Origin: a virus
Taxonomy: Duplodnaviria; Caudoviricetes
DNA: 64,000 nucleotides
Virus record (IMG/VR): IMGVR_UViG_3300027757_000725
Span: 1-64,000 of that record
Strand: one strand, 5' to 3'
The notes under the pieces are model-generated. The model did not search any database, was not told the origin of the DNA, and worked only from the letters and a program-made list of their open reading frames with translations. Shown here piece by piece: positions 3,826-54,629 of this stretch. Made by a program: the position numbers and the translations under genes. Each line of letters opens with the position of its first letter. The first letter of the stretch is position 1.

Positions 3826-5739
3826 ATGGCTTGGGAAAAAGGAGTACAAGATGTGAGGATGGGATACGCCTCAGAACCACTTAACGAATACCTAAAAAGT
3901 ATAGATGGTTCCATGAAGGAAGAGGACGCGCGATATTATCTATATAAATTTTTAAGAAATAATATTGCATTTACATCAGAATTGTTTTTAGGAGTCAAGC
4001 TATTCCCCTTTCAAGCTATGGCTGTCAAGGGAATGATGGTGTCTGACTATTCTATGTTCGTTTTCTCTCGAGGAATGTCTAAAACATTCTCTACTGCGGT
4101 TTATGTTTTATTAGAGTGTCTATTGAACCCAAACTCAAACATAGGAGTAATTGCAGGAACCTTCAGGCAGTCAAAGATGATATTCCAAAAAATGGAAGAC
4201 ATACTAGGCAAACCAGAAGCTAGGTTAGCAAAAGAGTGTGGCGTTAAGATAACTAAAGGAACTGACCAGTGGACTATGAAAATAGGGGGTAGTAAAGCTG
4301 TAGCATTACCGTTGGCTAACGGAGAAAGATTAAGGGGTTTTCGATTTAATAGGATAGTTCTTGACGAGTTCCTTACTATACCAGAAAAGATTTTTAATGA
4401 GGTTATTATGCCGTTTTTGGGGGTTGTAGAAAATCCTATAGAGCGTGAGGAACTATATAATCTTGAGACACGCATAATCGAAAAAGGTGAGATGGAAGAC
4501 AAGGATAGGTATGTCTGGCCTAATAACAAGTTGATAATTCTTTCATCTCCAAGCTTTAAATTCGAATATATGTATAAACTTTTCAAGAAATATGAATCAC
4601 TGATTATGGAGAAAACTATCTCTCAAGATGGGGTCGAAGATGATGATGATGATGATGAATATGGAGCAGGTTCTGGGGCTTATAGGTTAATAATGCAGTT
4701 GAGTTATGATTGTGCTCCTAAGAGACTTTATGATCAAAACCTGCTTAAACAAGCAAAGGCTACTATGAGTGAAATGCAGTTCAAAAGAGAATTTGGTGCT
4801 CAGTTCGTAGATGAGAGTGATGGTTATTTCAGATTATCAAAAATGGCTGCTTGTACGATACCTGACGGGGAAAGTCCAGCTGTAGAGGTGGTTGGCAACC
4901 CTAGTGATGAATACATACTAGCTTTTGACCCTAACTGGGCTGGTAACACAAGTGCAGACCACTTTGCTATGCATGTTTTTAAGGTGCTACAAGAAGACCA
5001 GAAGATCTGTTTAGTTCACAGTTACGCTGTGGCTGGGGTATCTTTAAGGGAGCATATGACATATTTCTTATATTTGATAACTCACTTCAACATTATTGGT
5101 ATATGCGGAGACTATAACGGAGGAGTGCAGTTTATCAACTCATGTAATGAAAGCCAGTTGTTTAAAGACAAGAACATAGACATAGGTGTCATAGAGATTG
5201 ATATAGAGAAGTCCGAAAACTACCATTCTGATATCCTTGCATTTAAAAATGAATATAATGTTAAAACAAGAAAATACTGTGTTTTAAGAAAGCCTACAGT
5301 CAACTGGATACGTAATGCAAACGAACTACTACAGGCATCTATTGATCACAAAAGAATACTATTTGGTTCTAGGGCGGTTGACTCGCATTTCGACGATCAA
5401 AGAAAAAAGAACTTACCGATTGAATCTCTCAAATGGGACATGAAAATAAATGCATCTTCCAAGGGCGCTAAAATGATTGACTTTATAGATCACCAAAAAA
5501 GTATAATAGAATTGACTAAATCAGAATGTGCTAATATTGAGGTGCTATCAAATCCCCAAGGATCTCAACAATTTAATCTACCACAAAACCTAAGAAGACA
5601 GACTGGTCCTAATAGAGCCCGAAAAGACTCTTATTCTGCATTGTTACTTGGCAACTGGTTTGGAAAGATTTACTTTGATTCTAAGCATGCTAAAGCTGAA
5701 AACAAACCCCAAGGTGGGTTTATCCCATTCACCATTTAA
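3826..5739 (+). CDS. terL: Terminase large subunit
   Basis: LFPFQ, Walker A-like SRGMSKT, LRGFRFNRIVLDEF (Walker B), nuclease-domain LAFDP and KDSYSA; upstream of the portal. Confidence 0.9.
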   Translation: MAWEKGVQDVRMGYASEPLNEYLKSIDGSMKEEDARYYLYKFLRNNIAFTSELFLGVKLFPFQAMAVKGMMVSDYSMFVFSRGMSKTFSTAVYVLLECLLNPNSNIGVIAGTFRQSKMIFQKMEDILGKPEARLAKECGVKITKGTDQWTMKIGGSKAVALPLANGERLRGFRFNRIVLDEFLTIPEKIFNEVIMPFLGVVENPIEREELYNLETRIIEKGEMEDKDRYVWPNNKLIILSSPSFKFEYMYKLFKKYESLIMEKTISQDGVEDDDDDDEYGAGSGAYRLIMQLSYDCAPKRLYDQNLLKQAKATMSEMQFKREFGAQFVDESDGYFRLSKMAACTIPDGESPAVEVVGNPSDEYILAFDPNWAGNTSADHFAMHVFKVLQEDQKICLVHSYAVAGVSLREHMTYFLYLITHFNIIGICGDYNGGVQFINSCNESQLFKDKNIDIGVIEIDIEKSENYHSDILAFKNEYNVKTRKYCVLRKPTVNWIRNANELLQASIDHKRILFGSRAVDSHFDDQRKKNLPIESLKWDMKINASSKGAKMIDFIDHQKSIIELTKSECANIEVLSNPQGSQQFNLPQNLRRQTGPNRARKDSYSALLLGNWFGKIYFDSKHAKAENKPQGGFIPFTI

Positions 5740-33510: not shown

Positions 33511-35235
33511 TTAAAAGAATTGTATTTTTTCTTTTCCATTATGGCAATAATATCCTTCTCTGCCGTCTTCCAAGTTTGGCATAAATGCTATGTCGAAATA
33601 TCCAATATGTTTTCCTTGACCCTCAAGAAAAGACGGATTATCAAAACCATTGTGATAAGGTAAGATTTTATGTACATTTGCATTGTCTTCTACCAACTGC
33701 TTTAGTTTAGGGTTTATAGCTAAATATATTTTTTTATCTATGTAGTTTTTTTGTATGTTTTTTAATAAGCTATTTATCATTAATGTGCCAGATTCTGTTG
33801 CTGGGGACACCACAAGTATTCTGTTTTCTGCGCCTTCATCGTCCAACATATCTGAAAAATGCTTTTCTTCAACTTGCTCTTCGTCTTCCTTCTTATCTTC
33901 TTGTATTTTTTCAATTCTTTTAGATTTTTTAGAATGAATATCTAGTATCGTTTTTTTAAGTTTGAATACCGTTTCTTCTACAGAGAACTCTTTTCTTATG
34001 TTTTCTTGACCCTTTCTTATTAGTTCATTCTTCTCGGTTTGAGTCATTTTAAATACGTTGTCCAGTTCTTCGCATATGCTTTCAGGATCTGTTGACGCTT
34101 TGATAAATTGTGTAGAAGGCTCCCTATACTCATGCCAAGACAAGGGGATTCCTCCTTGGTGATTGTGACAAGAATCTTCTCCACATGAATAGTTTGTGAC
34201 TAGGGTAATTAATCCAGCGGCTTTAGCTTCTTGTATAGGTAACTCTTGACCACCACTTGTAAATGGGTGGCAGTAAACATCCATTATGTTGTAGATTTCA
34301 TTTAGTTGTTCTTCGCTTACACCCTTAGCGCTAGTTTTTGTTTTAACGGATTTTTCTGAAACACAATTTGGGCAATTTAAGTCTTCGCCTTGGTAGGGTG
34401 AAAGATAGTATGAACTGCATTCGTGACATAAATAAGTAGACAATACATCCTCTTTATTGATTTGTTTTTCATCCAAGTAACGGGGTATGTCCCAGCCGCT
34501 TTTGTTTTCTGACCAATCAGTGTGCAGCAAAAGCTTTGCTTTGATTTCTGGGTTTTTTTGCTTAAACAGTTTGAATCCTTCCAAGAGGTTGGGTACGGAT
34601 TTCCTGAGTTGGTTTTTGAAAACAAACCCAATGATAAATTCATCGTTTATTCTGTGAGAATTTCTTACTTCTTTTCTGTTTTTCAGTGGTCTAAAGTTTT
34701 GGTAACTAACAGCTCCGTGTATAGTTTCTGTATTTTTACAACCAAGGTCTTTCATTTCTCTTTCCGCAAAAGAAGCCCAAACAAGCATCTTGTCGCATTT
34801 TGAATACATGTCTTTTGCTGTATGCAAAATTGGAGAACTGTCTAGCGTTGTCCACAGGATAGTTTTGGTTTTTTTCCACCATTCTTTGTTTTCAAATTCT
34901 CTAAAAGCCCATATATCTTCTATTCCAAGGTAAATGTCTGGCTTTACTTTTTCAATTATTGAGTCTATTGTATAATACCCGTATTGAGCTACTCTTTTTT
35001 TTGCTGGGTCATTATGTATTTTGTTCAATATGACACTATCTGACGGATAAGTACCGTAACTTTCCCAAGGTGTTTGCAAATCTAAACCAAAAGAAACTCC
35101 ATTTGCGGCTTCCACAACCTCCATTTCTGGATCTTCATGGAGAGCCATGAGAATATTTCTCATGTTCTTTCCAAAGCCAGTTACTAATCTAGAATAATTA
35201 GAGTGTATTAAAACTTTTATTTTAGAACGGGACAT
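33511..35235 (-). CDS. GT4-family glycosyltransferase with zinc-ribbon insertion and GT9-like C-terminal extension
   Basis: TGFG, NQLRKSV, YNIMDVYCHPFTSGGQELPIQEAKAAG; CHEC...CPNC insert. Confidence 0.8.
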   Translation of the reverse strand: MSRSKIKVLIHSNYSRLVTGFGKNMRNILMALHEDPEMEVVEAANGVSFGLDLQTPWESYGTYPSDSVILNKIHNDPAKKRVAQYGYYTIDSIIEKVKPDIYLGIEDIWAFREFENKEWWKKTKTILWTTLDSSPILHTAKDMYSKCDKMLVWASFAEREMKDLGCKNTETIHGAVSYQNFRPLKNRKEVRNSHRINDEFIIGFVFKNQLRKSVPNLLEGFKLFKQKNPEIKAKLLLHTDWSENKSGWDIPRYLDEKQINKEDVLSTYLCHECSSYYLSPYQGEDLNCPNCVSEKSVKTKTSAKGVSEEQLNEIYNIMDVYCHPFTSGGQELPIQEAKAAGLITLVTNYSCGEDSCHNHQGGIPLSWHEYREPSTQFIKASTDPESICEELDNVFKMTQTEKNELIRKGQENIRKEFSVEETVFKLKKTILDIHSKKSKRIEKIQEDKKEDEEQVEEKHFSDMLDDEGAENRILVVSPATESGTLMINSLLKNIQKNYIDKKIYLAINPKLKQLVEDNANVHKILPYHNGFDNPSFLEGQGKHIGYFDIAFMPNLEDGREGYYCHNGKEKIQFF

Positions 35236-43874: not shown

Positions 43875-44258
43875 TTAATCTATGTCTATTCTGACGTTGG
43901 AGTTCTCAAAGGTTTTCTTTTGATCTCTGAGGTGCTTTTTACCCGTTTTCTTTTTGTAATCTTTAAAAAGCTTCTTCTTAACAGGATCTTCTCCGTCTGA
44001 TGATTTAGAAGCTCTTTCTTCAGAAAGTTCTGCAGAATAGTCCATCATATCGCCCACTGTACCCTTCATATTACCTGTTTTTTCTATGAATCCAGCCCTG
44101 TTGTCTGCATCTAGCTTACTATCAATTGATGCGTTAGGCTTGGTAAAGACTCTTTCCCATTTTAATCCGTCCTCTTCATAAATATGTTCGTCATTCATTT
44201 TTTGAATAACTTCTTTAGAGACTCCAGTTTTAGGATTTTTGTATAAGTAAATAGGCAT
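43875..44258 (-). CDS. FmdB-like small regulatory protein (Cys-less)
   Basis: MPIYLYKNPKTG..KEVIQKM N-terminus. Confidence 0.55.
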   Translation of the reverse strand: MPIYLYKNPKTGVSKEVIQKMNDEHIYEEDGLKWERVFTKPNASIDSKLDADNRAGFIEKTGNMKGTVGDMMDYSAELSEERASKSSDGEDPVKKKLFKDYKKKTGKKHLRDQKKTFENSNVRIDID

Positions 44259-44259
44259 A

Positions 44260-45345
44260 TTAAAATATTTTGTTTAGGATTTTATTGGCTGTGTTTGAAT
44301 ATAAAAACTCATCCTGAAGTTTTAGTCCTTCTTTATTTTCTGTTTTCGATAATTTCAAAGCTCTGTCAATACCATCATTTACACTATTTATATCAATTTT
44401 GGAATATTGACCCTGATTAAATGGAAGACCTTCTTTAAAAAACATATTATCATAGCATGGTTGTTTTCCCGTAGGGTTTACAATTACAGAGTTTTTCTCA
44501 TTTGCCCAGTCTTTGTGAGATGAACAGTTAGTAACAATTGACCACTTACCCAAGGAGGTTGCATTAAATGCGGGAAGATTCCAGCCTTCTCCATTAGAGA
44601 GTCCAGATAAATCAATATCTACAGCATTCATTAATTCATTAACCTCTTCATTTGTTTTTAATCTTGGCAGAAAATTAACATTGGACCAAGACTTTCCTCC
44701 AAGAGATTCTTGTATTAATGAATTGAGTTGTTTTTCTTCAAAAAATGGATTGTGAACTAGACATGTAAGCTGATATTTTGGATTATCCCCAAACCTTCTT
44801 ACCCAAAGGTTTATTAATGCTGCTGTGTTTTTTCTTTTTTCAAATTTTCCTATAAGACCAAAATGAGTTATATCTTCGTCCATATATTTTTTACCTGTTC
44901 TATGAAAGTCTGAATCAAAACCCAATGGTATGTAAGATACATTTTCGCAACCTTTATCAGCGAAAAACTTGGCAGATTCAGATGATGAAAAGAAAACATG
45001 CTCTTGAGATTTAACTATATTAATTTCTTCTTCTGTGGGTGAATCAACCTCGTAGAAAGTATAAAGGTATTGTTTGTCGCCAATTTTTCTTTCCGAACCA
45101 TTTATGTGCCAAACTTTTAAAGTTGGTGTGTTTTTGTTAAGGTTTTTAAGAGCATTCCTTTGTGAATTTTTTAACCATTCTACAAAATCATCATCTACAT
45201 TATTAAATGCGGATAATTCAATAGAATTTCCTGTAGGGAATAGGTTTACTTTTACGCCTTGCTTATAAAGCTCCCTTAATATATTTAGTGATACGTTACC
45301 AAAACTCAAAGAGTTTAATGGACCGTCAAAGTTTAATTCTTTCAT
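44260..45345 (-). CDS. GT4-family glycosyltransferase
   Basis: IPLGFD, GKFEKRKN, EGWNLPAFNATSLGK. Confidence 0.85.
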   Translation of the reverse strand: MKELNFDGPLNSLSFGNVSLNILRELYKQGVKVNLFPTGNSIELSAFNNVDDDFVEWLKNSQRNALKNLNKNTPTLKVWHINGSERKIGDKQYLYTFYEVDSPTEEEINIVKSQEHVFFSSSESAKFFADKGCENVSYIPLGFDSDFHRTGKKYMDEDITHFGLIGKFEKRKNTAALINLWVRRFGDNPKYQLTCLVHNPFFEEKQLNSLIQESLGGKSWSNVNFLPRLKTNEEVNELMNAVDIDLSGLSNGEGWNLPAFNATSLGKWSIVTNCSSHKDWANEKNSVIVNPTGKQPCYDNMFFKEGLPFNQGQYSKIDINSVNDGIDRALKLSKTENKEGLKLQDEFLYSNTANKILNKIF

Positions 45346-45916
45346 TGCTTACTTTTTTTCTAAAATTTTCTATTGTTCTGTTGTGTATATTTATACATCC
45401 TTGGTGTGAAAGATTAGTTTTCTCTGCAACTTTGTTCCAAGGTTTTAGTTTGTTTGATTCACCACCAAAATATCTTTCATTGAATATCAGCCTGACCCTT
45501 TCGTCTTCGTGATCTGATATCATATTTAGTATTCTGTTTAATGTCTCTTCGTAGATACATGTCTCTTCAGGAGTATTATCAGGAGTCTCAATGAAAAAAT
45601 CAACATAATCGTAATTAATTGAAGAGTTTTTTTTGTTTTTTGTCTTTTCAGTTAAGCAAATATACTTAGCTTTGTTGGCTATGTGTGTGGAAAACTTTGC
45701 TCTTGATTCATCATAGTCTAGTGCGGCTTCATATATATTATAATCTTTTTCATCTAAAATTTGCCCCATTTGCGTATAAGATAGGCTTTTAGATCCAAAC
45801 TTTCTGACCATATTTACATATATACCAGAATGTCTGCTTATCAATTCAATTAAAGCCACCTCGTCTCCGAATTCCTTAACCTTTTCTGTTAATTGAGTAT
45901 CGCTAAAAGTGTTCAT
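45326..45916 (-). CDS. Phage sigma70-family sigma factor (second copy)
   Basis: ALIELISRHSG, IYEAALDYDESRAKFSTHI (region 2); HTH KPWNKVAEKTNLSHQGCINIH. Confidence 0.8.
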   Translation of the reverse strand: MNTFSDTQLTEKVKEFGDEVALIELISRHSGIYVNMVRKFGSKSLSYTQMGQILDEKDYNIYEAALDYDESRAKFSTHIANKAKYICLTEKTKNKKNSSINYDYVDFFIETPDNTPEETCIYEETLNRILNMISDHEDERVRLIFNERYFGGESNKLKPWNKVAEKTNLSHQGCINIHNRTIENFRKKVSNERIKL

Positions 45917-46278: not shown

Positions 46279-47256
46279 ATGAGCATATTCGAAGAGCAAG
46301 TATCAAGAAAACCTAATAATTACCCGTGGGCTGAAGAATTTATTGAAGTTATGCATAATGGCTTCTGGACTGACAAAGAATTCAGTTTTTCTTCTGATGT
46401 TCAAGACTTCCATATAACAATGGACGATCAACAAAGGGAAATAATTATAAGAACTCTTTCTGCTATTGGTCAAATCGAAGTTGCTGTTAAAAAATTCTGG
46501 GCTAAACTGGGAGATAATTTACCACACCCATCTCTTACTGACCTTGGTTATGTGATGGCTAACACGGAGGTTATTCATAACAATGCTTATGAAAGACTGC
46601 TTAAGGTTCTTGGTTTGGAAGATGTTTTCGAAGAAAACTTAAAGTTGGATTTTATTGAGGGTCGTGTTAATTATTTGCGTAAATATACACATAGGTTCTA
46701 CAAGGATTCTAAGAAGCAGTATTTGTATGCGCTTATTTTGTTTACGTTGTTCGTGGAGAATGTTTCTTTAATGAGCCAGTTTTACGTTATTAATTGGTTC
46801 TCCAGAAACAAAAACGTACTCAAGGATACAGAACAGCAGGTAAGATATACAAGAAACGAAGAAAACATTCATGCTCAAGTAGGAATTAAGATCATTAATA
46901 CCATAAGAGAAGAGCATCCAGAGCTTTTCGACGAGGAGCTTGAAGAGCGTATTATGCAAGAGGCTGAACAAGCTTATGTTGCAGAAGCTAAAATTATTGA
47001 TTGGATGGTTAACGGAATTAATGAAGAAGGATTAAGCGCTCCACTACTAAAAGAGTTTATTAAATCTAGGATTAATGATTCACTTGAACAAATTTCATTT
47101 AAGAAGGCTTTTGATGTTGACAATAATGTGATTAAAGATACAATGTGGTTTGAAGAGGAGTTAATGGGAAACAATTCCACAGACTTTTTCCACTCTCGTC
47201 CTGTAGAGTATTCAAAGAAATCACAAACATTCGATCTAGAAAGCGTATTTGCATGA
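46279..47256 (+). CDS. nrdB: Ribonucleotide reductase beta subunit, class Id-like
   Basis: E67, K71, E97-x2-H100, Y104, ENVSL and EENIH ferritin-like ligands. Confidence 0.95.
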   Translation: MSIFEEQVSRKPNNYPWAEEFIEVMHNGFWTDKEFSFSSDVQDFHITMDDQQREIIIRTLSAIGQIEVAVKKFWAKLGDNLPHPSLTDLGYVMANTEVIHNNAYERLLKVLGLEDVFEENLKLDFIEGRVNYLRKYTHRFYKDSKKQYLYALILFTLFVENVSLMSQFYVINWFSRNKNVLKDTEQQVRYTRNEENIHAQVGIKIINTIREEHPELFDEELEERIMQEAEQAYVAEAKIIDWMVNGINEEGLSAPLLKEFIKSRINDSLEQISFKKAFDVDNNVIKDTMWFEEELMGNNSTDFFHSRPVEYSKKSQTFDLESVFA

Positions 47257-48923
47257 AAAAATATTATTGGAACAACAAAACATCACAACAAATTTTAAAC
47301 AGAGGTTATCTTGACGGCGAAAGCTTAATTAGTCGGGTATTGAGCGTCGGGGAATCATTTCAGAAAGACTTCCAGTCTAGAGCTCCCGCCGAACACAAAG
47401 GTAAGTTTTCCGACCTGTGTGAAAAGTTTGAGCATTACATGTCTCTTGGATTCTTTTCTTTATCTAGCCCTGTTTGGGCTAATTATGGAAGAGATAGGGG
47501 TTTGCCTGTTTCTTGTAATGGCGTTTTTGTGCCTGATACAATGGAGGGAATTTTGACAAAGCAGTCCGAAGTCGGTATGCAAACTAAGCATGGTGCTGGA
47601 ACTTCTGGTTATTTTGGTGATCTCAGAGGCAGGGGTAAGTCAATTAGCACAGGAGGAAGCTCATCTGGCTCGGTTCACTTCATGGAGTTGTTTGACAAGG
47701 TGACTTCAGTGGTATCTCAGAGTAGTGTGCGAAGAGGTTCTTTCGCTGCCTATCTCCCTGTCGATCACCCAGATATCGAAGAGTTTCTCCGTATTAGATC
47801 TGATGGACATCCTATTCAGGATTTATCGTTTGCTGTCACCATTACAGACGAATGGATGGAGGATATGAAAGGCGGAGACATTGATAAGCGAAAGATCTGG
47901 GCTAAGATTGTTCAGAAGAAGTTTGAATCAGGCTACCCCTATTTATTTTTCCAAGATACCGCGAACAAGAACGCTCCTCAAGTCTATAAAGATAAAAACA
48001 TGAAGATTTATGCTTCTAATCTTTGTAACGAAATTGCGCTACCTTCCTCACCAGAAGAGTCGTTTGTCTGTTGTTTATCTTCTCTTAATTTGGAGAGGTG
48101 GGATGAGATTGTTAAGACCGATGCTATTGAAACAATGGTTTACTTTCTTGATTCGGTAATGGAGGAGTATATCAATAAGACTGAGGATATTCCTTATATG
48201 GAATTTGACCACAACTTTGCAAAACGCCATAGGGCTTTGGGAATGGGTGTTCTTGGTTGGCATTCTTATTTGCAAGACAATATGGTTTCTTTTGAAAGCA
48301 TGGAAGCAAAGATGAAAAATGCTGAAATTTTTAGAACAATCAGAGAAAGAGCGGACAAAGCCACCGAAGAACTAGCCAAGGTCTTTGGAGAACCAGAAGT
48401 ATTGAAAGGTTATGGTCGCAGAAATACAACAACAATGGCTGTTGCTCCTACAACTACAAGTTCACTTATACTAGGTCAAGTATCTCAAGGGATTGAGCCT
48501 ACTGTCAATTATTATACAAAGAATTCTGCAAAAGGAAAATTTACAATTAGAAGTCCTCACCTAGAGAGATTACTTGAATCTAAAGGTAAAAATACGGAAG
48601 CTGTATGGAAATCTATTCTTGTTAAGGACGGTTCAGTTCAACACTTGGGCTTTCTCGACGAACACGAAAAAGATGTATTTAAAACATTTTCAGAAGTATC
48701 CCAGAAAGAGATTGTAATACAAGCCTCCCAACGCCAGAAATATATTGATCAAGGACAGTCGTTGAACTTAATGGTTCACCCTAAAGCTTCTCCAAAGGAA
48801 GTTAGTGATCTTATGATTTTAGGTTGGGAGATGGGTCTTAAAGGGTTTTATTATCAAAGAAGCACAAATCCAAGTCAGGCTCTCGCTCAATCCATCATGG
48901 AATGTCAGTCCTGCGAGGGTTGA
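47253..48923 (+). CDS. nrdA: Ribonucleotide reductase alpha subunit (short, no ATP cone)
   Basis: LPVSC, RRGS, SNLCNE, APTTTSS, DQGQSLN, YY and C-terminal CQSCEG. Confidence 0.95.
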   Translation: MKKYYWNNKTSQQILNRGYLDGESLISRVLSVGESFQKDFQSRAPAEHKGKFSDLCEKFEHYMSLGFFSLSSPVWANYGRDRGLPVSCNGVFVPDTMEGILTKQSEVGMQTKHGAGTSGYFGDLRGRGKSISTGGSSSGSVHFMELFDKVTSVVSQSSVRRGSFAAYLPVDHPDIEEFLRIRSDGHPIQDLSFAVTITDEWMEDMKGGDIDKRKIWAKIVQKKFESGYPYLFFQDTANKNAPQVYKDKNMKIYASNLCNEIALPSSPEESFVCCLSSLNLERWDEIVKTDAIETMVYFLDSVMEEYINKTEDIPYMEFDHNFAKRHRALGMGVLGWHSYLQDNMVSFESMEAKMKNAEIFRTIRERADKATEELAKVFGEPEVLKGYGRRNTTTMAVAPTTTSSLILGQVSQGIEPTVNYYTKNSAKGKFTIRSPHLERLLESKGKNTEAVWKSILVKDGSVQHLGFLDEHEKDVFKTFSEVSQKEIVIQASQRQKYIDQGQSLNLMVHPKASPKEVSDLMILGWEMGLKGFYYQRSTNPSQALAQSIMECQSCEG

Positions 48924-49007: not shown

Positions 49008-49445
49008 ATGACAACATTAATAAAAAAACAGTGGCCTAAAAACCGACCTCATATATTTGAGGGTGATATATTCAACAGAATGTTTGACTTCATTGACGAT
49101 GGATCTATTCACAATGCGTGGAGTTCTGATCCTTGCAATGTTTATACAACAAAAGAAGGTAAAACCATCCTTGAATTTGCTCTTGTCGGAGCAGATAAAG
49201 AAGATATTAGCATTACTATTTCTGGTCAAAGCTTGAAAATAGAAGCTTCTCCAAAAAGTTTGAGAGAAGAAGATAACGAGTTTTACCAAAAGAAAATTGC
49301 TCAGAGAACACTCAAGAAGATATATACTCTTCATGAAAGAGTTGACAAAGAAGGAATAACTTCTTTTTATAAAAACGGTTTGTTAAAAATAACAATTCCA
49401 GTTGAAAAAGAAGAAGTTAGAGATATAGTAGTTCACATAGAATAA
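49008..49445 (+). CDS. Hsp20 / alpha-crystallin small heat-shock protein
   Basis: LVGADKEDISI...KKIAQR...YKNGLLKITIP. Confidence 0.9.
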   Translation: MTTLIKKQWPKNRPHIFEGDIFNRMFDFIDDGSIHNAWSSDPCNVYTTKEGKTILEFALVGADKEDISITISGQSLKIEASPKSLREEDNEFYQKKIAQRTLKKIYTLHERVDKEGITSFYKNGLLKITIPVEKEEVRDIVVHIE

Positions 49446-49463: not shown

Positions 49464-49498
49464 AACCTCTCTAAGTTTTATTCTTAGAGGGGTTTTTT
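49464..49498 (+). terminator. Rho-independent terminator after hsp20
   Basis: AACCTCTCTAAG-loop-CTTAGAGGGGTT then Ts. Confidence 0.85.
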
Positions 49499-49538: not shown

Positions 49539-50225
49539 ATGTCGCTGCTAGATCAGTTTACAGATTACAAAAAAAACAACACAAAAACAAAATGCTTAAT
49601 TTTGAGTTGTGGTCCATCTTTAAATGGAATAACAAAAGAAAAAGTCAAAGAACTATCTAAAGATCACGTTATAGTAACAATAAAACAATCTTATATAGAG
49701 TTTGGCGACTATAGTGATTTCCAATTTTTTAACTGCAACAATATAATTAAATACGAAAGAAATAAGGCAAAGTTTATTTATTGCTCTCCATCTATGTCAT
49801 CCAATCTTAAAAATCAAAACATAGATATGTACTTTCCAATGTCAGAGTATAACCTTAAAAAAAGACTCTGCCATTTTGAAAATTTAGAAGAATATTTTTC
49901 AATGAATAACATTGGTAAATTTTTTGGGGCTGGTATTATGTTTGAAATAGTACTTCCTTTTGTTTATAATCTTGGAGTGAATGAGATACTAACAGTAGGA
50001 TGGGATTATCACAAAAAAGATGGTAAATACAGTCATTTTTATAAAAATTCTGATAGTAATTCTTTTTTAAATCCAGCTAATCCTCTATTTCTGGGAGAAA
50101 ATGAAGAGTCAATCAACAACAGCAGCAGAGTAAATTCATTTTTTTTATTAAATGGAGTTAATTTATCTTGTGTTGAAAGCAAAGAATGTTTTTTGCATGA
50201 ATCTATAACTAGAGTTTCTTTATGA
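49539..50225 (+). CDS. Maf/DUF115-like (sialyltransferase-fold) sugar transferase
   Basis: CLILSCGPSL and YNLGVNEILTVGWDY...HFY motifs. Confidence 0.65.
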   Translation: MSLLDQFTDYKKNNTKTKCLILSCGPSLNGITKEKVKELSKDHVIVTIKQSYIEFGDYSDFQFFNCNNIIKYERNKAKFIYCSPSMSSNLKNQNIDMYFPMSEYNLKKRLCHFENLEEYFSMNNIGKFFGAGIMFEIVLPFVYNLGVNEILTVGWDYHKKDGKYSHFYKNSDSNSFLNPANPLFLGENEESINNSSRVNSFFLLNGVNLSCVESKECFLHESITRVSL

Positions 50226-50977
50226 GTGATAATAAATTTAATATACAAGACACAATCAAACGTCTGTTTCATAAAAACCTAATTGGAATCAAACAATCAT
50301 TTGAAGATGAAGGTGGTCTCCTAGAAGATATAAGGGAAATCAGAAAAGTAACTCAGGTAAATGAATTAAAACTAAGTGTCAAAATAGGTGGCTGCGAGGC
50401 AAAATCTGACATATATCAATGTAAACTAATGGGTGTCGACGGAATTGTTGCTCCTATGATTGAAACAGAATTTGCATTACAAAAATTCACAGAAGCCGTA
50501 TCAAACATTGCCAATATTAAATTTTATATAAACATTGAGAGTAAGACTGGCTATGAAAACATAGATAAAATATTAGATTCTCCATCATCAAAAATGTTGT
50601 CAGGCGTAGTGGTTGGAAGATCCGATCTAGTTAAATCATACGGACATGATAAATCATTTGTTAATTCAGATTTTATCTTTGATAAAACTCATGAGATAAT
50701 GAAAAAAGCAAAGTCTTACGGACTGGAAACCCTAATGGGAGGTAACCTATCACCTGACAGTTTTGATTTTATTTCTAAGCTTAAAAAAGAAGAATTGATT
50801 GATTACGTAGAAACAAGAAATACAATTATTAAGGTTGATAACATTTCTGAATTAAAGGATGACATAATTTCAGCGCTTGAATTTGAATCTATTTTGTTGG
50901 ATTTCAAATACAGAAAATACAAAGAAATTTCAGAAGAGTATTATTCCCGTTCTGAGACTCTAAAACAAAGACTGTAA
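50222..50977 (+). CDS. HpcH/HpaI aldolase / citrate lyase family protein
   Basis: DGIVAPMIET, INIES..G.ENI..I, VVVGRSDLVKSYG. Confidence 0.8.
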   Translation: MSDNKFNIQDTIKRLFHKNLIGIKQSFEDEGGLLEDIREIRKVTQVNELKLSVKIGGCEAKSDIYQCKLMGVDGIVAPMIETEFALQKFTEAVSNIANIKFYINIESKTGYENIDKILDSPSSKMLSGVVVGRSDLVKSYGHDKSFVNSDFIFDKTHEIMKKAKSYGLETLMGGNLSPDSFDFISKLKKEELIDYVETRNTIIKVDNISELKDDIISALEFESILLDFKYRKYKEISEEYYSRSETLKQRL

Positions 50978-50991
50978 ATTAAACAATTGCC

Positions 50992-51651
50992 ATGAGTAGA
51001 AAAAAAATAACTGCAGTAATACCCATCAGGAAAGGTTCCCAAAGAGTTCCTTACAAAAATTTTAAAAACTTTCACAAAGGTAAGTCTTTATTGCAGATCA
51101 AAATAGAATTTTTAAAAGAAATAGATTTAATCGACAATATTACTGTTAATACAGATTCAGATGTAGCAATCGATATAGCAAAAAACCTCGGCGTTTCATA
51201 TTTTCTCAGAGATGATTATTATGCAAGTTCAGAATGCTCTCAATCAGAATTTTTTAGTAACCTAGCGGAGACAACAGATACAGACATTATAATTCATGCG
51301 CCTTGTACTTCTCCTATGATTAAAAAACAAACAATTATAGATGCTATTAATAGATTCAATATTTCAAAAAATGATTCTTGTAATTCTGTAGGCTTGGTAA
51401 AAGAGTATTTATGGAGAGATGGTAAACCTCTAAACTATAATATAGAAAAAGGTCAAGTTCCAAATAGTCAAAATTTACCTGACATTAAAAAACTTACTTT
51501 TGGGTTTGGTATTATTGGGAAAGAAACTATGCTTGATAGGCAGAACGTTGTCGGTGAAAACCCCCTTCTGTATATATTAGATGAAGACGAGCAAATTGAT
51601 ATTGATACTAAAATTGATTTTGAGTTTGCTAAATTTTTATATAAAAAGTAA
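50992..51651 (+). CDS. Acylneuraminate/ulosonate cytidylyltransferase (NeuA-like)
   Basis: IPIRKGSQRVPYKN, VNTDS, TSP, IDIDT..DF. Confidence 0.9.
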   Translation: MSRKKITAVIPIRKGSQRVPYKNFKNFHKGKSLLQIKIEFLKEIDLIDNITVNTDSDVAIDIAKNLGVSYFLRDDYYASSECSQSEFFSNLAETTDTDIIIHAPCTSPMIKKQTIIDAINRFNISKNDSCNSVGLVKEYLWRDGKPLNYNIEKGQVPNSQNLPDIKKLTFGFGIIGKETMLDRQNVVGENPLLYILDEDEQIDIDTKIDFEFAKFLYKK

Positions 51652-52046
51652 TGACCTTAAAAGAATATACAAAGCTGCAAGAGATTGAAAACAATAATCA
51701 GATAGCTATAGATTTTGATGGAGTAATACACAAAAATTCCAAAGGTTTTTTCGACGGTACTGTATATGATAATCCCATTGAAGGTTCTCTTGATGCAATC
51801 AAAGAGATAAGCAAAAGGTTTGATATAATTATATTTACAGCCAAGGCTTCCAAAGACAGACCTTTAATCAATGGAAAGACGGGTAAAGAGCATGTTGTTG
51901 ATTGGCTAAAGGAAAATGGTTTTTATAAATATATTAAAGATGTAGTTGTAGAAAAACCTAGAGCTGTTTTGTATATAGATGACAAAGCTTTTAGATTTGA
52001 AAATTGGGTTAAAACCAATGATTTTGTTTCTAGTATAAATACTTGA
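51651..52046 (+). CDS. Small HAD-superfamily phosphatase
   Basis: IAIDFDGVI, IFTA, KP..LYIDDKA. Confidence 0.85.
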   Translation: MTLKEYTKLQEIENNNQIAIDFDGVIHKNSKGFFDGTVYDNPIEGSLDAIKEISKRFDIIIFTAKASKDRPLINGKTGKEHVVDWLKENGFYKYIKDVVVEKPRAVLYIDDKAFRFENWVKTNDFVSSINT

Positions 52047-52083: not shown

Positions 52084-52908
52084 ATGGAAACAATAGTATC
52101 AGTATTTTGCATTTGGAGGGACAGCGAAGAAAATATATTAAGAACCCTAAAACAGTTAGAAGACTTAGAAAAATTAAGCACTTTTTCTTTTTCTTACTTT
52201 TTTTATGAGAATGATTCTAAAGATAAAACTAGAGAAATTTTAGAGAACTGGATGAAAAAAAGGTCAGGTGTTTTTTTATCTGAAGATTTAAATGAAGTAA
52301 AATTTGGCAGCACAACAGATCCACAAAGAATGAAACTTCTTTGTGAATGTAGGAACAAGTGCAAAAATTTAGCGGGAGAAAATAATTCTAATATCTCATT
52401 AATTATAGATTCAGACATAAAGTTTGATACTGATAATTTTCTCATGCAAATTTCGGATTTAAACAAACTTGATTCTGCAGTAATGATTACAGCAAATGTT
52501 AGGCAAAACATAAAAGACTTAGTTTTTAATGAGTCAGAAGACTCTTATTATGATGTTTATGCATTCAGAGATGAGCACGGCACTAATGGTATGTATTTCT
52601 CCGACTGTCCATCTTATAAAAGTTCAGATCAAAAATCTTGGAGTGAAGGTCGTCCAATCATTACAATGTCTTCATTCGGCGGTTTTGCTGTTTTAAAATC
52701 AGAAGTTTTTAATAAAGTACGTTGGTACTCTGACATACATTGCGATCACGTTAACATGTGTTTTGATATATCTAAACATGGCAGAATATATTGCGAACCC
52801 AAAAGCAAGGTGTATGTAGAAATTGATTTGTCTAATCTAAACCTAGATTCGTGTAAACAAATAGGTATACAACAAAGACAAAAATATGAACAGTTTTTTA
52901 AAACCTAA
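52084..52908 (+). CDS. GT-A glycosyltransferase (CAP59/Anp1-like)
   Basis: YENDSKD, IIDSDI (DxD), YYDVYAFRD, SSFGG, CDH. Confidence 0.7.
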   Translation: METIVSVFCIWRDSEENILRTLKQLEDLEKLSTFSFSYFFYENDSKDKTREILENWMKKRSGVFLSEDLNEVKFGSTTDPQRMKLLCECRNKCKNLAGENNSNISLIIDSDIKFDTDNFLMQISDLNKLDSAVMITANVRQNIKDLVFNESEDSYYDVYAFRDEHGTNGMYFSDCPSYKSSDQKSWSEGRPIITMSSFGGFAVLKSEVFNKVRWYSDIHCDHVNMCFDISKHGRIYCEPKSKVYVEIDLSNLNLDSCKQIGIQQRQKYEQFFKT

Positions 52909-53539
52909 GTTGGTTATAGTCACTTCAGTAATAGATCCAGTATTGTCAAATCTTCGCAGTAGCAATAGAAGCCTTTTTAAAAAAGAGAAGCGCTTTGAGC
53001 AAACAAAAGTTACCTTGGGTAGTTTATCGGCAATTAAAAACAAAAAAATTTTATTTATAGAAGCCACTGATATAGATGAGTACATGGAAGAATATATATT
53101 AGATCATGTAGATTACTATGTAAACACAAAAAATGTAGACTGGGTCACAGGCGGTGTTAACTCTCCGTGGAAATGTATTGGCGAAGCTAGAATGATAGAA
53201 CACGGGTTAAAGTTTCATAGTTTAACTGAATATAATTCTGTTTTCAAAATAAGCGGAAGATATTATATTAGTAAGGACTTTCAAGCCGAGAGGCAAAACG
53301 TACAAAATTCGGTATTTTCACACCAAAATAAAGGAGCACATTGGAATTCAACTTTTTTTTATAAAATTTGTGAAGAACATTTTGAGGTTTACCAACAATG
53401 CCTTGCTCATTGTTCTAATGCGAGAGGTGTAATGGAAAGGCGTTTTTTCAATTTTTTTAGAGACACTGATTGTATATATGTCCCAAAATTTGGTGTTTGC
53501 GGTTGGGCAGGACCAACAGGAGGATTTTACTGTTGGTAA
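52886..53539 (+). CDS. Hypothetical protein, likely glycosyltransferase-related
   Basis: VTSVI..RFEQT..GEA..FKISGRY pattern; inside the sugar cluster. Confidence 0.45.
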   Translation: MNSFLKPKLVIVTSVIDPVLSNLRSSNRSLFKKEKRFEQTKVTLGSLSAIKNKKILFIEATDIDEYMEEYILDHVDYYVNTKNVDWVTGGVNSPWKCIGEARMIEHGLKFHSLTEYNSVFKISGRYYISKDFQAERQNVQNSVFSHQNKGAHWNSTFFYKICEEHFEVYQQCLAHCSNARGVMERRFFNFFRDTDCIYVPKFGVCGWAGPTGGFYCW

Positions 53540-53600: not shown

Positions 53601-54629
53601 ATGAAGAAAGTAATAATCACAGGAGTAACAGGTCAAGATGGAAGTCACATGGCGGACTATTTGCTGGCGAACACCGACATCGAGATCATTGCGGGTGTAC
53701 GACGACTTTCTGTAAAGAACCACGAAAATATTGAGCACCTAGAAGAGAACCCAAGATTCAAACTAATTGATCTTGATGTTACAGATCAGCATAATGTAAA
53801 CAGGGTAATCTTGCAAGAAAAACCAGATTACTTTATCAACTTCGCCGCCAATTCATTTGTTGGTACTAGCTGGAAAATGCCAGTCAACCACATGGAAACA
53901 AACTGCATGGCGGTTTTATATCAACTTTGTGCTATTGCTGAACATGCTCCTAATTGCCGTTACTACAATGCTGGAAGCTCGGAAGAGTTTGGTGACGTTG
54001 TTACTTCTCCGCAGGATGAGACGCATCCACTGCGCCCCAGAAGCCCTTACGGAGCATCTAAGGCTGCAGCTAGACACTTAGTAAAAGTGTGGCGTGAAAG
54101 TTACAATTTATACGCCATTCAGGGATGGTTATTTAATCACGAAGGCGTTCGTCGTGGAGAAGAGTTTCTTACCCGCAAAGTAACAAAAGGAGTCGCAGAT
54201 ATTTTTTGTAAAGACAGTATCGGAGATAAATTCAAACCCCTTCAACTTGGAAACCTTGAAGCAAAGCGAGACTGGTCTGATGCGGAGGACTTTATTGATG
54301 GTATTTGGAAAATGTTAAATAAAGAAGAACCAAAAGAATACGTTCTAGCTTCTGGCAAAACACATACCATTCGAGAATTTGTAGAAGCAGCTTTTGCTTG
54401 CGCTGGCTATGGAGCAGAGGAGTGTCATTGGGAAGGCGAGTCAGTCCATGAAGAATATCTTCATGGCGACAAAATACTCGTTCAAGTAAATTCAGAATTT
54501 TACAGACCTGCAGAGGTTGAACTTTTACTCGGTGACCCTACCTTGGCAGAAAGAGAGCTTGGCTGGGAAAGGAAAACAGATTTCTACGGCTTAGTCAAAA
54601 AGATGGTTGACAACGATATCAATTTATGA
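53601..54629 (+). CDS. gmd: GDP-mannose 4,6-dehydratase
   Basis: ITGVTGQDGS, SSEEFG, PRSPYGASK, LFNHE, GNLEAKRDW, RPAEVELLLGD. Confidence 0.95.
   Translation: MKKVIITGVTGQDGSHMADYLLANTDIEIIAGVRRLSVKNHENIEHLEENPRFKLIDLDVTDQHNVNRVILQEKPDYFINFAANSFVGTSWKMPVNHMETNCMAVLYQLCAIAEHAPNCRYYNAGSSEEFGDVVTSPQDETHPLRPRSPYGASKAAARHLVKVWRESYNLYAIQGWLFNHEGVRRGEEFLTRKVTKGVADIFCKDSIGDKFKPLQLGNLEAKRDWSDAEDFIDGIWKMLNKEEPKEYVLASGKTHTIREFVEAAFACAGYGAEECHWEGESVHEEYLHGDKILVQVNSEFYRPAEVELLLGDPTLAERELGWERKTDFYGLVKKMVDNDINL

What the first reader, a model, noticed from the sequence alone, without database searches (positions are those of the whole stretch)
49539..52046. Phage-encoded four-step CMP-ulosonate pathway using an HpcH aldolase instead of NeuB/KdsA
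Seen: four tightly packed genes encode a Maf/DUF115-like transferase, an HpcH/HpaI class II aldolase, a NeuA-like cytidylyltransferase and a HAD phosphatase. Known: sialic acid, Kdn and Kdo pathways run condensation, dephosphorylation, CMP activation and transfer, and normally use a PEP-dependent NeuB or KdsA synthase; neither is seen in this window. Inference: the phage makes a 2-keto-3-deoxy sugar acid by aldol condensation, activates it with CTP and attaches it to a glycan or protein. This would be a self-contained sialylation-like route with an atypical synthase.
Basis: partly seen in the sequence, partly recalled or inferred. Interest (0 to 1): 0.85.

Follow-up and report, generated by a model that had tools for sequence, protein, structure and literature searches.

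The report
NeuB-free CMP-ulosonate cassette in phage
An uncultured marine phage carries a compact four-gene cassette that most likely builds, dephosphorylates, CMP-activates and transfers a Kdo/sialic-acid-like sugar acid, using a divergent aldolase-fold enzyme in place of the usual NeuB/KdsA synthase; the same module recurs in marine bacteria and other phages.

Summary
Four coupled ORFs (49539-52046, + strand) encode a Maf/MptE-like transferase, a divergent HpcH/HpaI-superfamily enzyme (ALD), a NeuA/PseF-like cytidylyltransferase (CMPt) and a minimal 131-aa HAD phosphatase.

The reading is supported by comparative genomics, not by biochemistry.
- All four gene families sit together in at least 9 other phage and marine-bacterial loci.
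- ALD is fused to the HAD in three proteins. It is fused to a dehydroquinate-synthase-like enzyme in two others. This points to a phosphorylated 3-deoxy-2-ulosonate as its product.
- The ALD-adjacent CMPt forms its own orthogroup.
- In about 100 other loci, ALD sits beside a YerE-like ThDP enzyme that needs an alpha-keto-acid donor.
- No NeuB or KdsA was found in the window, or in three related contigs of 65-80 kb.

Caveats:
- The catalytic Arg of HpaI could not be aligned. An invariant Lys lies near that position.
- The fold is as close to pyruvate kinase as to the aldolases, so the donor (pyruvate, PEP or oxaloacetate) is open.
- The sugar's chain length and the acceptor are unknown.
- The rest of the genome could not be read.

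This scan had already noted the same module on other DNA (e1-4702860, e1-5747535). I found no paper describing it. I class it as a new variant of a known kind.

The parts
49464..49494 (+). Terminator-like hairpin (12-bp stem, T-run) after hsp20. It marks the start of a separate transcription unit.
49539..50225 (+). Maf/MptE-like protein, 228 aa. It is the proposed CMP-ulosonate-dependent transferase. Invariant motifs are GxGPS, GWD, H166 and E187.
   Evidence: PF01973 at E 1.7e-5, below the gathering score. Family alignment A2. Profile against CstII GT42, E 0.006. AF2 pLDDT 91. Maf 5mu5 Z 12.2, MjHPPK Z 10.8, Cst-I Z 9.7, GT29 Z 8-9.
50222..50977 (+). ALD: divergent HpcH/HpaI-superfamily TIM-barrel enzyme, 251 aa. 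It is the proposed ulosonate(-phosphate) synthase. E106 and D135 are the metal ligands. K54 is invariant near the place of the aldolase Arg.
   Evidence: PF03328 at 39.1 bits, above the gathering score. A1 invariants. PDB profile and hhalign to HpaI, YfaU and GarL. AF2 pLDDT 92.5. Z about 18.5 to SbnG, pyruvate kinase and HpaI, tied. Family of 395 50%-identity clusters at E<=1e-30.
50992..51651 (+). CMPt: NeuA/PseF-like cytidylyltransferase, 219 aa. It belongs to an orthogroup that is always next to ALD.
   Evidence: PF02348 at 53.8 bits; PseF 69.9 bits and KdsB models, all below their cut-offs. NeuA structures at 3e-9 and 4e-7, with the N-terminal IPxRxGSxxxPxKN-like and C-terminal DIDTxxD-like motifs visible in the alignment. 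Orthogroup analysis.
51651..52046 (+). Minimal capless HAD phosphatase, 131 aa ('hadB' subtype). It is the proposed ulosonate-omega-phosphate phosphatase.
   Evidence: phrog_1238 at 3.7e-16. GmhB at 0.0019. HAD motifs. Profile against 2obb, 1xpj, 9iqw and GmhB. Fused to ALD in L114, L115 and P0157.
52084..52908 (+). GT-A glycosyltransferase (CAP59-like), in the same operon. A homolog lies just upstream of the cassette in L001.
   Evidence: PF11735 at 32 bits, above the gathering score. 65% identical in L001.
52886..53539 (+). 217-aa protein of a virus-only family with a GT-A-like predicted fold. Probably a further glycosyltransferase.
   Evidence: No Pfam or PHROG hit.
53601..54629 (+). GDP-mannose 4,6-dehydratase. 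It is conserved next to the cassette in L001 and is frequent near ALD in viral loci.
   Evidence: PF16363 at 338 bits; TIGR01472 at 308 bits, below its cut-off of 415..

Best explanation
The cassette is a NeuB/KdsA-independent route to a CMP-activated 3-deoxy-2-ulosonic acid. All four steps are inferred; none is shown biochemically.

Step 1. ALD is a Mg2+/Mn2+-dependent enzyme of the pyruvate-kinase/HpcH TIM-barrel superfamily. It adds a pyruvate-derived enolate to a host aldose phosphate. The product is a 2-keto-3-deoxy-aldonate omega-phosphate, of the DAHP, Kdo8P or Kdn9P type.

Step 2. The 131-aa HAD removes the terminal phosphate.

Step 3. The NeuA/PseF-like enzyme couples the free ulosonate to CMP, using CTP.

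Step 4. The Maf/sialyltransferase-fold protein transfers the ulosonate to a glycan or protein. The neighbouring GT-A enzymes and the GDP-mannose dehydratase build the rest of the glycan.

The target could be the virion or the host surface; this is unknown.
For: Gene identities.

Operon-like packing downstream of a terminator.

Co-occurrence. L001 (91% ALD identity) keeps all four genes plus the GT and GMD in synteny. The four families also sit together in L094 and L096 (phage-type MptE) and in L003, L085, L086, L089, L090, L092 and L093. In those seven, the MptE-like gene scores 47.5 bits, above the gathering score. The L094 contig carries a TerL homolog of the window's terminase.

Fusions. 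ALD-HAD proteins of 377-379 aa occur in L114, L115 and P0157. ALD-DHQS-like proteins of 590-592 aa occur as P0171 and in L135. Both fusion partners act on phosphate esters, and the canonical DHQS substrate is a 3-deoxy-2-ulosonate 7-phosphate.

Independent context. In 102 of 142 ALD loci a YerE-like ThDP enzyme lies within 4 genes, together with CDP-hexose genes. Such enzymes take aldolase-made alpha-keto acids as donors. In M. marinum, deleting the aldolase/citrate-lyase-family gene mmar_2331 abolishes caryophyllose (PMC9306805).

Context switches. The ALD tree shows at least 3 switches between CMP and ThDP contexts, so the same kind of product feeds both.

Dedicated CMPt. ALD-adjacent CMPts are 36-60% identical to the phage enzyme. 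Other CMPts in the same loci are 20-25% identical.

Synthase bookkeeping. No NeuB or KdsA was found in the window or in G001, G002 and G004. The 158-kb contig G003 has 2 NeuB, 1 ALD and 3 CMPt.

Metal ligands E106 and D135 are invariant and align to GarL E153 and D179.

Maf enzymes are reported to use CMP-Neu5Ac and CMP-Kdo as donors (abstracts of 10.1101/2020.06.03.131540 and PMC11339370).
Against: There is no biochemical evidence for any step.

The N-terminal half of ALD, including the position of HpaI R70 / GarL R75, does not align to characterised aldolases. An invariant Lys54 lies about there instead.

The fold is equally close to pyruvate kinase, the SbnG citrate synthase and HpaI. The donor and even the reaction type are therefore not fixed.

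The phage MptE-like protein scores below Pfam's cut-off, and its fold is shared with a pyrophosphokinase (MjHPPK, Z 10.8).

CMPt is below the cut-off of every NCBIfam equivalog.

Many ALD-CMPt loci in Pelagibacteraceae show no had131 gene nearby.

One related contig (G005) has a KdsA-type gene about 2.5 kb outside the fetched locus L096, roughly 10 kb from ALD.
Confidence: 0.62

Rival explanations
1. The pathway logic is the same, but ALD is not a pyruvate aldolase. It would be a PEP-dependent (or oxaloacetate-decarboxylating) synthase of the pyruvate-kinase superfamily, which makes the condensation irreversible as in KdsA, NeuB and DAHP synthase.
For: The fold ties with pyruvate kinase (Z 18.6, 16-18% identity). 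The GRSDL motif has an invariant Arg before the metal-binding Asp; from my memory of the pyruvate kinase sequence, unchecked here, this resembles its R-G-D-L motif, whereas the aldolases have G-P-x-D-L. The aldolase Arg is not alignable. There are many invariant Lys and Arg residues. From my own knowledge, class II aldol equilibria favour cleavage.
Against: The only significant sequence matches are to HpcH-type pyruvate aldolases. In the sister ThDP-type clusters, the literature proposes a pyruvate aldolase (PMC9306805).
Confidence: 0.15
2. The four genes are not one pathway. CMPt would activate a host-made ulosonate, or one made by a NeuB/KdsA encoded elsewhere in the phage genome (Kdo, or a nonulosonate). 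ALD and HAD would make a keto acid for another purpose, such as a branch or substituent donor.
For: The rest of the genome is unread, and earlier scan notes list more glycan genes beyond the window. ALD mostly serves ThDP-type pathways elsewhere. G005 has a KdsA-type gene near its module.
Against: The window has no ThDP enzyme. The ALD-adjacent CMPt is a distinct orthogroup found only next to ALD. Three contigs of 65-80 kb carry ALD, CMPt and MptE without NeuB or KdsA. In G003 the number of CMPt genes equals NeuB plus ALD.
Confidence: 0.1
3. The first gene is not the transferase. It would be an MptE-type pyrophosphokinase or another nucleotide-binding enzyme. The CMP-sugar would then be transferred by the adjacent GT-A proteins (52084-53539).
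For: The Pfam match is to the MptE-like family and is sub-threshold. MjHPPK is the second-best fold match (Z 10.8). Two GT-A-like genes follow the cassette.
Against: The best fold match is Maf (Z 12.2), and six of the top eight matches are CMP-sugar-dependent transferases. The family profile matches CstII end to end. MptE-like genes directly follow CMPt in seven other loci. From my own knowledge, known ulosonate transferases are not of the CAP59/GT-A type.
Confidence: 0.15

Closest known systems
Kdo pathway (KdsA - KdsC - KdsB - Kdo transferase), and the Kdn-9-P / Neu5Ac-9-P routes (synthase - HAD phosphatase - CMP synthetase - sialyltransferase)
   Same: The proposed logic is the same four steps: condensation of a C3 keto-acid unit with an aldose phosphate, HAD dephosphorylation, CMP activation by a PF02348 enzyme, and transfer.
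   Different: The synthase is not homologous to KdsA or NeuB. It is an HpcH/pyruvate-kinase-superfamily enzyme. The HAD is a 131-aa minimal form, not KdsC. The transferase is Maf/GT42-like. CMPt does not reach the cut-off of any PseF or KdsB equivalog.
HpcH/HpaI class II pyruvate aldolases (HpaI, GarL, YfaU/RhmA)
   Same: They share a TIM barrel, the Glu/Asp metal site, and a Pfam match above threshold. The products of these enzymes are 4-hydroxy-2-keto acids.
   Different: Only about 100 residues are alignable. Identity to the structures is 12-16%. The catalytic Arg is not conserved in an alignable way. ALD has family-specific invariant motifs (KQSxEDEG, KIGGCEA). The family is biosynthetic and glycan-linked rather than catabolic.
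Acyl-branched sugar pathways (yersiniose, erwiniose, caryophyllose: aldolase plus YerE-type ThDP enzyme; PMC9306805)
   Same: Most cellular and giant-virus homologs of ALD sit in exactly this context. An aldolase supplies a hydroxylated alpha-keto acid for glycan building.
   Different: The phage cassette has no ThDP enzyme and no CDP-hexose genes. The keto acid is proposed to be CMP-activated as a glycosyl donor instead of being decarboxylated onto a 4-keto sugar. Whether mmar_2331 belongs to this exact subfamily was not tested.
Maf flagellin nonulosonic-acid transferases and GT42 sialyltransferases (CstI/CstII)
   Same: They share the fold and the GxGPS-type nucleotide-binding motif. Their donors are CMP-ulosonates.
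   Different: The phage protein is only the 228-aa core; Maf is about 630 aa with flanking domains. No flagellin context was seen here. The CstII catalytic residues could not be mapped.

Membership tests
HpcH/HpaI aldolase/citrate lyase family (PF03328) | Match to the family HMM above the curated cut-off | tested here: met
   39.1 bits against 25, residues 67-170 only.
HpcH/HpaI aldolase/citrate lyase family (PF03328) | Pyruvate-kinase-like TIM-barrel fold | tested here: met
   AF2 pLDDT 92.5. Z 18.5 to AbHpaI (rmsd 2.5, 188 aligned). This ties with SbnG (18.7) and pyruvate kinases (18.6).
HpcH/HpaI aldolase/citrate lyase family (PF03328) | Divalent-metal ligands Glu and Asp (GarL E153/D179; HpaI E149/D175 by my recollection of the numbering) | tested here: met
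   E106 (NIES) and D135 (GRSDL) are invariant in 21 sequences. They align to the vqvES and GpxDL motifs.
HpcH/HpaI aldolase/citrate lyase family (PF03328) | Catalytic Arg that polarises the pyruvate carbonyl (HpaI R70 / GarL R75, numbering from memory) | tested here: inconclusive
   The N-terminal half is not aligned by HMMER or hhalign. By spacing, an invariant Lys54 ends strand 3 about where the Arg would lie. No residue-level superposition was available.
HpcH/HpaI aldolase/citrate lyase family (PF03328) | Pyruvate-dependent aldol addition or cleavage | not testable with these tools
   Needs an enzyme assay.
CMP-ulosonate synthetases (PF02348: NeuA, KdsB, PseF, LegF) | Family HMM above the cut-off, and the conserved N-terminal nucleotide-binding and C-terminal Asp motifs | tested here: met
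   53.8 bits against 22.6. In the alignment to PpNeuA, the segment from 'ipirkgsqrvpykn' to 'ididtkidf' is matched.
PseF / KdsB equivalogs (NCBIfam TIGR03584, PRK05450 and others) | Score above the equivalog cut-off | tested here: not met
   PseF 69.9 bits against 205.7. KdsB models score at most 36 bits against cut-offs of at least 193. It is therefore a separate subfamily; see the orthogroup.
HAD phosphatase superfamily | The four catalytic motifs (DxDx[TV], S/T, K, DD) | tested here: met
   D21, D23 and G24, then T, KP, and D110/D111 are conserved across 37 family members. The profile hits 2obb, 1xpj and 9iqw (E 5e-12 to 3e-10) and GmhB (0.002). No Pfam HAD model matched.
Maf / MptE-like (PF01973) | Family HMM above the cut-off | tested here: not met
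   The phage protein scores 25.1 bits against 34.6. The homolog in L089 scores 47.5 bits, above the cut-off. Four of the 19 close homologs listed carry a precomputed PF01973 hit.
Maf / MptE-like (PF01973) | Maf/sialyltransferase-type Rossmann-like fold with a GxGPS motif | tested here: met
   5mu5 Z 12.2, Cst-I Z 9.7, GT29 Z 8-9. G25, P26 and S27 are invariant.
GT42 sialyltransferases (CstI/CstII) | Catalytic His base and CMP-phosphate-binding Tyr residues | tested here: inconclusive
   The full-length profile match is only E 0.006. Invariant H166 and E187 exist, but they do not map reliably onto CstII H188.
NeuB / KdsA synthases (PF03102, PF00793) | Presence of such a gene with the cassette | tested here: not met
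   None was found among about 40 window ORFs by Pfam or by six-frame tblastn. None was found in G001, G002 or G004. The rest of this genome was not readable.

The most novel reading that the evidence does not exclude
A previously unrecognised synthase family of the HpcH/pyruvate-kinase superfamily condenses a pyruvyl unit with an aldose phosphate to give a 3-deoxy-2-ulosonate phosphate. This may be a C7 DAH-type acid rather than Kdo or a nonulosonate. Microbes and viruses, from marine phages to giant viruses, then use the product in one of two ways. It is either a CMP-activated glycosyl donor or a ThDP-transferred acyl branch. The phage uses the CMP branch to put a new acidic sugar on its virion or on the host surface.
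Probability: 0.4. Interest if true: 0.8.

Novelty: new variant of a known kind. Interest (0 to 1): 0.68.

Why it matters
From my own knowledge, every characterised route to CMP-ulosonic acids (Kdo, Kdn, Neu5Ac, Pse, Leg and relatives) starts with a PEP-dependent NeuB- or KdsA-type synthase. Genome surveys for 'sialic-acid-like' sugars therefore search for those genes.

A non-homologous synthase would mean that such surveys miss a class of acidic surface sugars in abundant marine lineages (SAR86, Flavobacteriales, Pelagibacteraceae) and in their phages. It would also add a new enzyme for the chemo-enzymatic synthesis of ulosonic acids.

The module gives a defined, four-protein system that can be reconstituted in vitro. 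It also links two glycan-diversifying chemistries (CMP donors and ThDP acyl branches) through one shared building block. For phage biology, it is a candidate virion- or host-surface-modifying system.

Tried and rejected
Searches that led nowhere:
- Whole-genome search for NeuB/KdsA: no genome is held for this window.
The 119-kb contig carrying the identical ALD, and the long contigs of close relatives, could not be fetched.
- GenBank phages: no DNA match to the region and no protein match to ALD. The RecA-like gene is at most 26% identical to any listed phage. No cultured relative is available for comparison.
- PHROGs gave nothing for ORFs 1-3.
- Fused forms longer than 440 aa by word search: none. 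The exhaustive profile search did find a 592-aa ALD-DHQS fusion.
- Literature: no paper combines HpcH with cytidylyltransferase and phage. None of the 20 listed papers in the search of HpcH against ulosonic, nonulosonic, Kdo, sialic or Maf mentions HpcH. SugarBase (2026) reports new CMP-ulosonates but no aldolase.
- Foldseek alone gave only weak matches for the MptE-like model (best E 1.8e-3). VIA-align resolved it.

Readings considered and dropped:
- PEP mutase or a phosphonate pathway: there is no PEP_mutase match, and the fold is pyruvate-kinase/HpcH-like.
- A catabolic ulosonate lyase: the context is biosynthetic throughout.
- A T4-like cyanophage or pelagimyophage identity for the window: not supported.

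Mapping the catalytic Arg by residue-level structural superposition was not possible, because model coordinates are not exposed.
Full report
WHAT IS THERE

The window is part of an uncultured phage genome. It carries a large terminase at 3826-5739 (phrog_2). It also carries a ribonucleotide reductase at 46279-48923 and an Hsp20 at 49008-49445. A RecA/UvsX-like recombinase, an HNH endonuclease and a DnaB-like helicase lie downstream. No GenBank phage is close to it.

A strong terminator-like hairpin lies at 49464-49494. After it, nine same-strand genes are packed with overlaps or gaps under 65 nt.

The first four are the finding.

- ORF1 (49539-50225) matches PF01973 MptE-like below threshold.
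  - A 24-sequence family profile (A2) finds the GT42 sialyltransferase CstII as its best solved relative, over almost the full length (E 0.006).
  - The confident AF2 model (pLDDT 91) is closest to the Maf glycosyltransferase 5mu5 (Z 12.2). Next come the archaeal MptE pyrophosphokinase (10.8), Cst-I (9.7) and GT29 sialyltransferases (8-9).
- ORF2 (ALD, 50222-50977) matches PF03328 above threshold.
- ORF3 (CMPt, 50992-51651) is a PF02348 cytidylyltransferase.
  - It is closest to the PseF model and to NeuA structures. It falls below every NCBIfam equivalog cut-off.
- ORF4 (51651-52046) has no Pfam hit but carries all four HAD motifs.
  - Its family profile hits small capless HAD structures, one of them titled 'capsule biosynthesis protein', and also GmhB.

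Downstream lie a CAP59-like GT-A, a virus-only GT-A-like protein and a GDP-mannose 4,6-dehydratase.

THE ALDOLASE-LIKE ENZYME

ALD belongs to a compact, strongly conserved family. It has 395 clusters at 50% identity with E<=1e-30, among 1.84 billion representatives. It occurs in 438 of about 185,000 species genomes.

Its invariant residues include E106 and D135. HMMER and hhalign place these on the Glu and Asp metal ligands of HpaI, YfaU and GarL.

The N-terminal half does not align to any characterised aldolase. By spacing, an invariant Lys54 ends strand 3 about where the catalytic Arg would be.

The AF2 model (pLDDT 92.5) is equally similar to HpaI, to the SbnG citrate synthase and to pyruvate kinases (Z about 18.5).

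ALD is thus a divergent member of the enolate-stabilising pyruvate-kinase/HpcH superfamily. Membership of the Pfam family is met. Identity with the classical pyruvate aldolase mechanism is not established.

COMPARATIVE GENOMICS

I fetched 80 genomic loci and 70 viral loci around ALD homologs. I clustered about 2,200 neighbouring ORFs and annotated representatives.

A core module recurs: ALD, then often an LdpA/DUF561-like Fe-S protein, then a had131-type HAD. The HAD family is present in 38 loci. The module is coupled to one of two consumers.

(a) ThDP context. In 102 of 142 ALD loci a YerE-like ThDP enzyme lies within four genes, with CDP-hexose genes (RfbF-like, 4,6-dehydratase, E1-like DegT). 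These loci come from bacteria, one archaeal MAG, phages and giant-virus MAGs.
  - This is the layout of acyl-branched sugar pathways, where an aldolase supplies a hydroxylated alpha-keto-acid donor.
  - In M. marinum, deletion of the aldolase/citrate-lyase-family gene mmar_2331 abolishes caryophyllose (PMC9306805).

(b) CMP context. In 23 loci the partner is a PF02348 CMP transferase.
  - The four phage gene families sit together in L001 (syntenic, ALD 91% identical), L094, L096, L003, L085, L086, L089, L090, L092 and L093.
  - L094's contig carries a terminase related to the window's.

The ALD tree needs at least three switches between the two contexts. The phage ALD lies in a CMP-linked clade with SAR86 and Flavobacteriales sequences.

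ALD-adjacent CMPts are 36-60% identical to the phage enzyme. Other CMPts in the same loci are only 20-25% identical.

EVIDENCE FOR A PHOSPHORYLATED PRODUCT

ALD is fused to the HAD in L114, L115 and P0157 (377-379 aa; the L114 HAD part is 56% identical to the phage HAD). ALD is fused to a dehydroquinate-synthase-like enzyme in P0171 and L135 (590-592 aa).

In ThDP-type loci, either a HAD or an SDR plus DHQS-like pair follows ALD.

From textbook knowledge, the canonical DHQS substrate is 3-deoxy-D-arabino-heptulosonate 7-phosphate, and DHQS eliminates its phosphate. Both partners therefore point to an ALD product that is a 3-deoxy-2-ulosonate omega-phosphate. This in turn points to an aldose phosphate as the acceptor substrate. 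This step is inference.

IS ANOTHER SYNTHASE PRESENT?

No NeuB or KdsA was found in about 40 Pfam-scanned window ORFs. A six-frame tblastn with viral NeuB and KdsA queries also found none.

Three related viral contigs of 65-80 kb carry ALD, CMPt and an MptE-like gene but have neither synthase.

A 158-kb contig has two NeuB genes, one ALD and three CMPts. That is one synthase per activating enzyme.

One contig (G005) has a KdsA-type gene about 2.5 kb outside the fetched locus L096, roughly 10 kb from ALD.

The remainder of this phage genome could not be read. Earlier scan notes say it continues for at least 32 kb with more glycan genes.

MOST LIKELY MECHANISM AND ALTERNATIVES

ALD condenses a pyruvyl enolate with a host aldose phosphate. 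The HAD removes the terminal phosphate. CMPt makes the CMP-ulosonate. The Maf/GT42-fold protein transfers it. The flanking GT-A enzymes and GMD build the rest of the glycan. I put this at about 0.6-0.65.

What is open:
- The donor could be pyruvate, PEP or oxaloacetate.
- The chain length could be C6 to C9. The NeuA/PseF-like CMPt hints at a longer sugar, and the DHQS link hints at C7.
- The acceptor could be on the virion or on the host surface.

Rivals:
- A PEP-dependent synthase variant (0.15).
- Unlinked functions, with CMPt acting on a conventional ulosonate (0.1).
- The MptE-like protein is not the transferase (0.15; this one is compatible with the core claim).

COMPARISON WITH WHAT IS KNOWN, AND NOVELTY

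The logic is that of the Kdo and Kdn-9-P/Neu5Ac-9-P pathways. However, the synthase is not homologous to theirs, the HAD is a minimal form, and CMPt is a separate subfamily.

Full-text searches found no paper linking an HpcH-type enzyme to CMP-ulosonate synthesis.

This scan had already flagged the same module on other DNA (e1-4702860, followed up; e1-5747535) and the ThDP-type version in phages (e1-5668718, e1-5668732). These are AI notes, not independent evidence.

- the ALD-HAD and ALD-DHQS fusions;
- the dedicated CMPt orthogroup;
- the Maf-fold assignment;
- the NeuB/CMPt bookkeeping;
- a natural cassette swap between near-isogenic loci. L089 and L090 share flanking genes at 81-92% identity, yet Fe-S + hadA + CMPt is replaced by CMPt + hadB, the phage's type.

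VERDICT

It is a new variant of a known kind. Interest is 0.68.

Noticed in passing
L089:8705-10836 vs L090:8720-9779: Two near-isogenic loci share flanking genes at 81-92% identity. One has Fe-S(LdpA/DUF561-like) + hadA + CMPt, and the other has CMPt + hadB. The two CMPts are only 61% identical. This suggests that the Fe-S protein alters the sugar acid and that CMPt co-varies with it. The phage has the Fe-S-less type.
   Followed up: partly
P0171; L135:7962-9734: Fusion proteins of 590-592 aa join the ALD domain to a dehydroquinate-synthase-like domain. In many ThDP-type loci, an SDR plus DHQS-like pair replaces the HAD after ALD.
   Followed up: partly
L098:7265-7969 and cluster c17 (for example L094:7163-7900, L096:10198-10938): A second, more canonical HpcH_HpaI paralog (57 bits) often lies next to ALD. 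It sits either between the ThDP enzyme and ALD or before a second KdsB-like CMPt. Its role is unknown.
   Followed up: no
L112-L145 (GVMAG contigs): Giant-virus MAG contigs carry ALD with ThDP-enzyme and DHQS-like neighbours. Branched-sugar-type modules therefore seem to occur in Nucleocytoviricota too. ALD homologs also occur in Rickettsiales and Wolbachia MAGs (L022, L042, L045, L047).
   Followed up: no
L120 (contig G003, 158 kb): One viral contig holds two NeuB genes, one ALD and three CMP transferases in one island. This implies three different CMP-ulosonates in one phage.
   Followed up: partly
window:52886-53539: This 217-aa protein belongs to a family seen almost only in viruses (Uroviricota and Nucleocytoviricota). 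Its predicted fold is GT-A-like. It has no Pfam or PHROG match.
   Followed up: partly
window:31606-35872 and 43875-45916 (minus strand): Two further GT-B (Glycos_transf_1) genes lie at 33511-35235 and 44260-45345 among unknown ORFs. The phage carries many glycan genes besides the cassette.
   Followed up: no
window:55090-56606: The RecA/UvsX-like gene is followed, with a 4-nt overlap, by an HNH endonuclease gene. The same pair follows the sugar genes in L001, L105 and L110.
   Followed up: no
window:1133-1816: An ORF with a Sigma-70 region 2 match (24.9 bits) lies upstream of the terminase. It may be a phage-encoded sigma factor.
   Followed up: no
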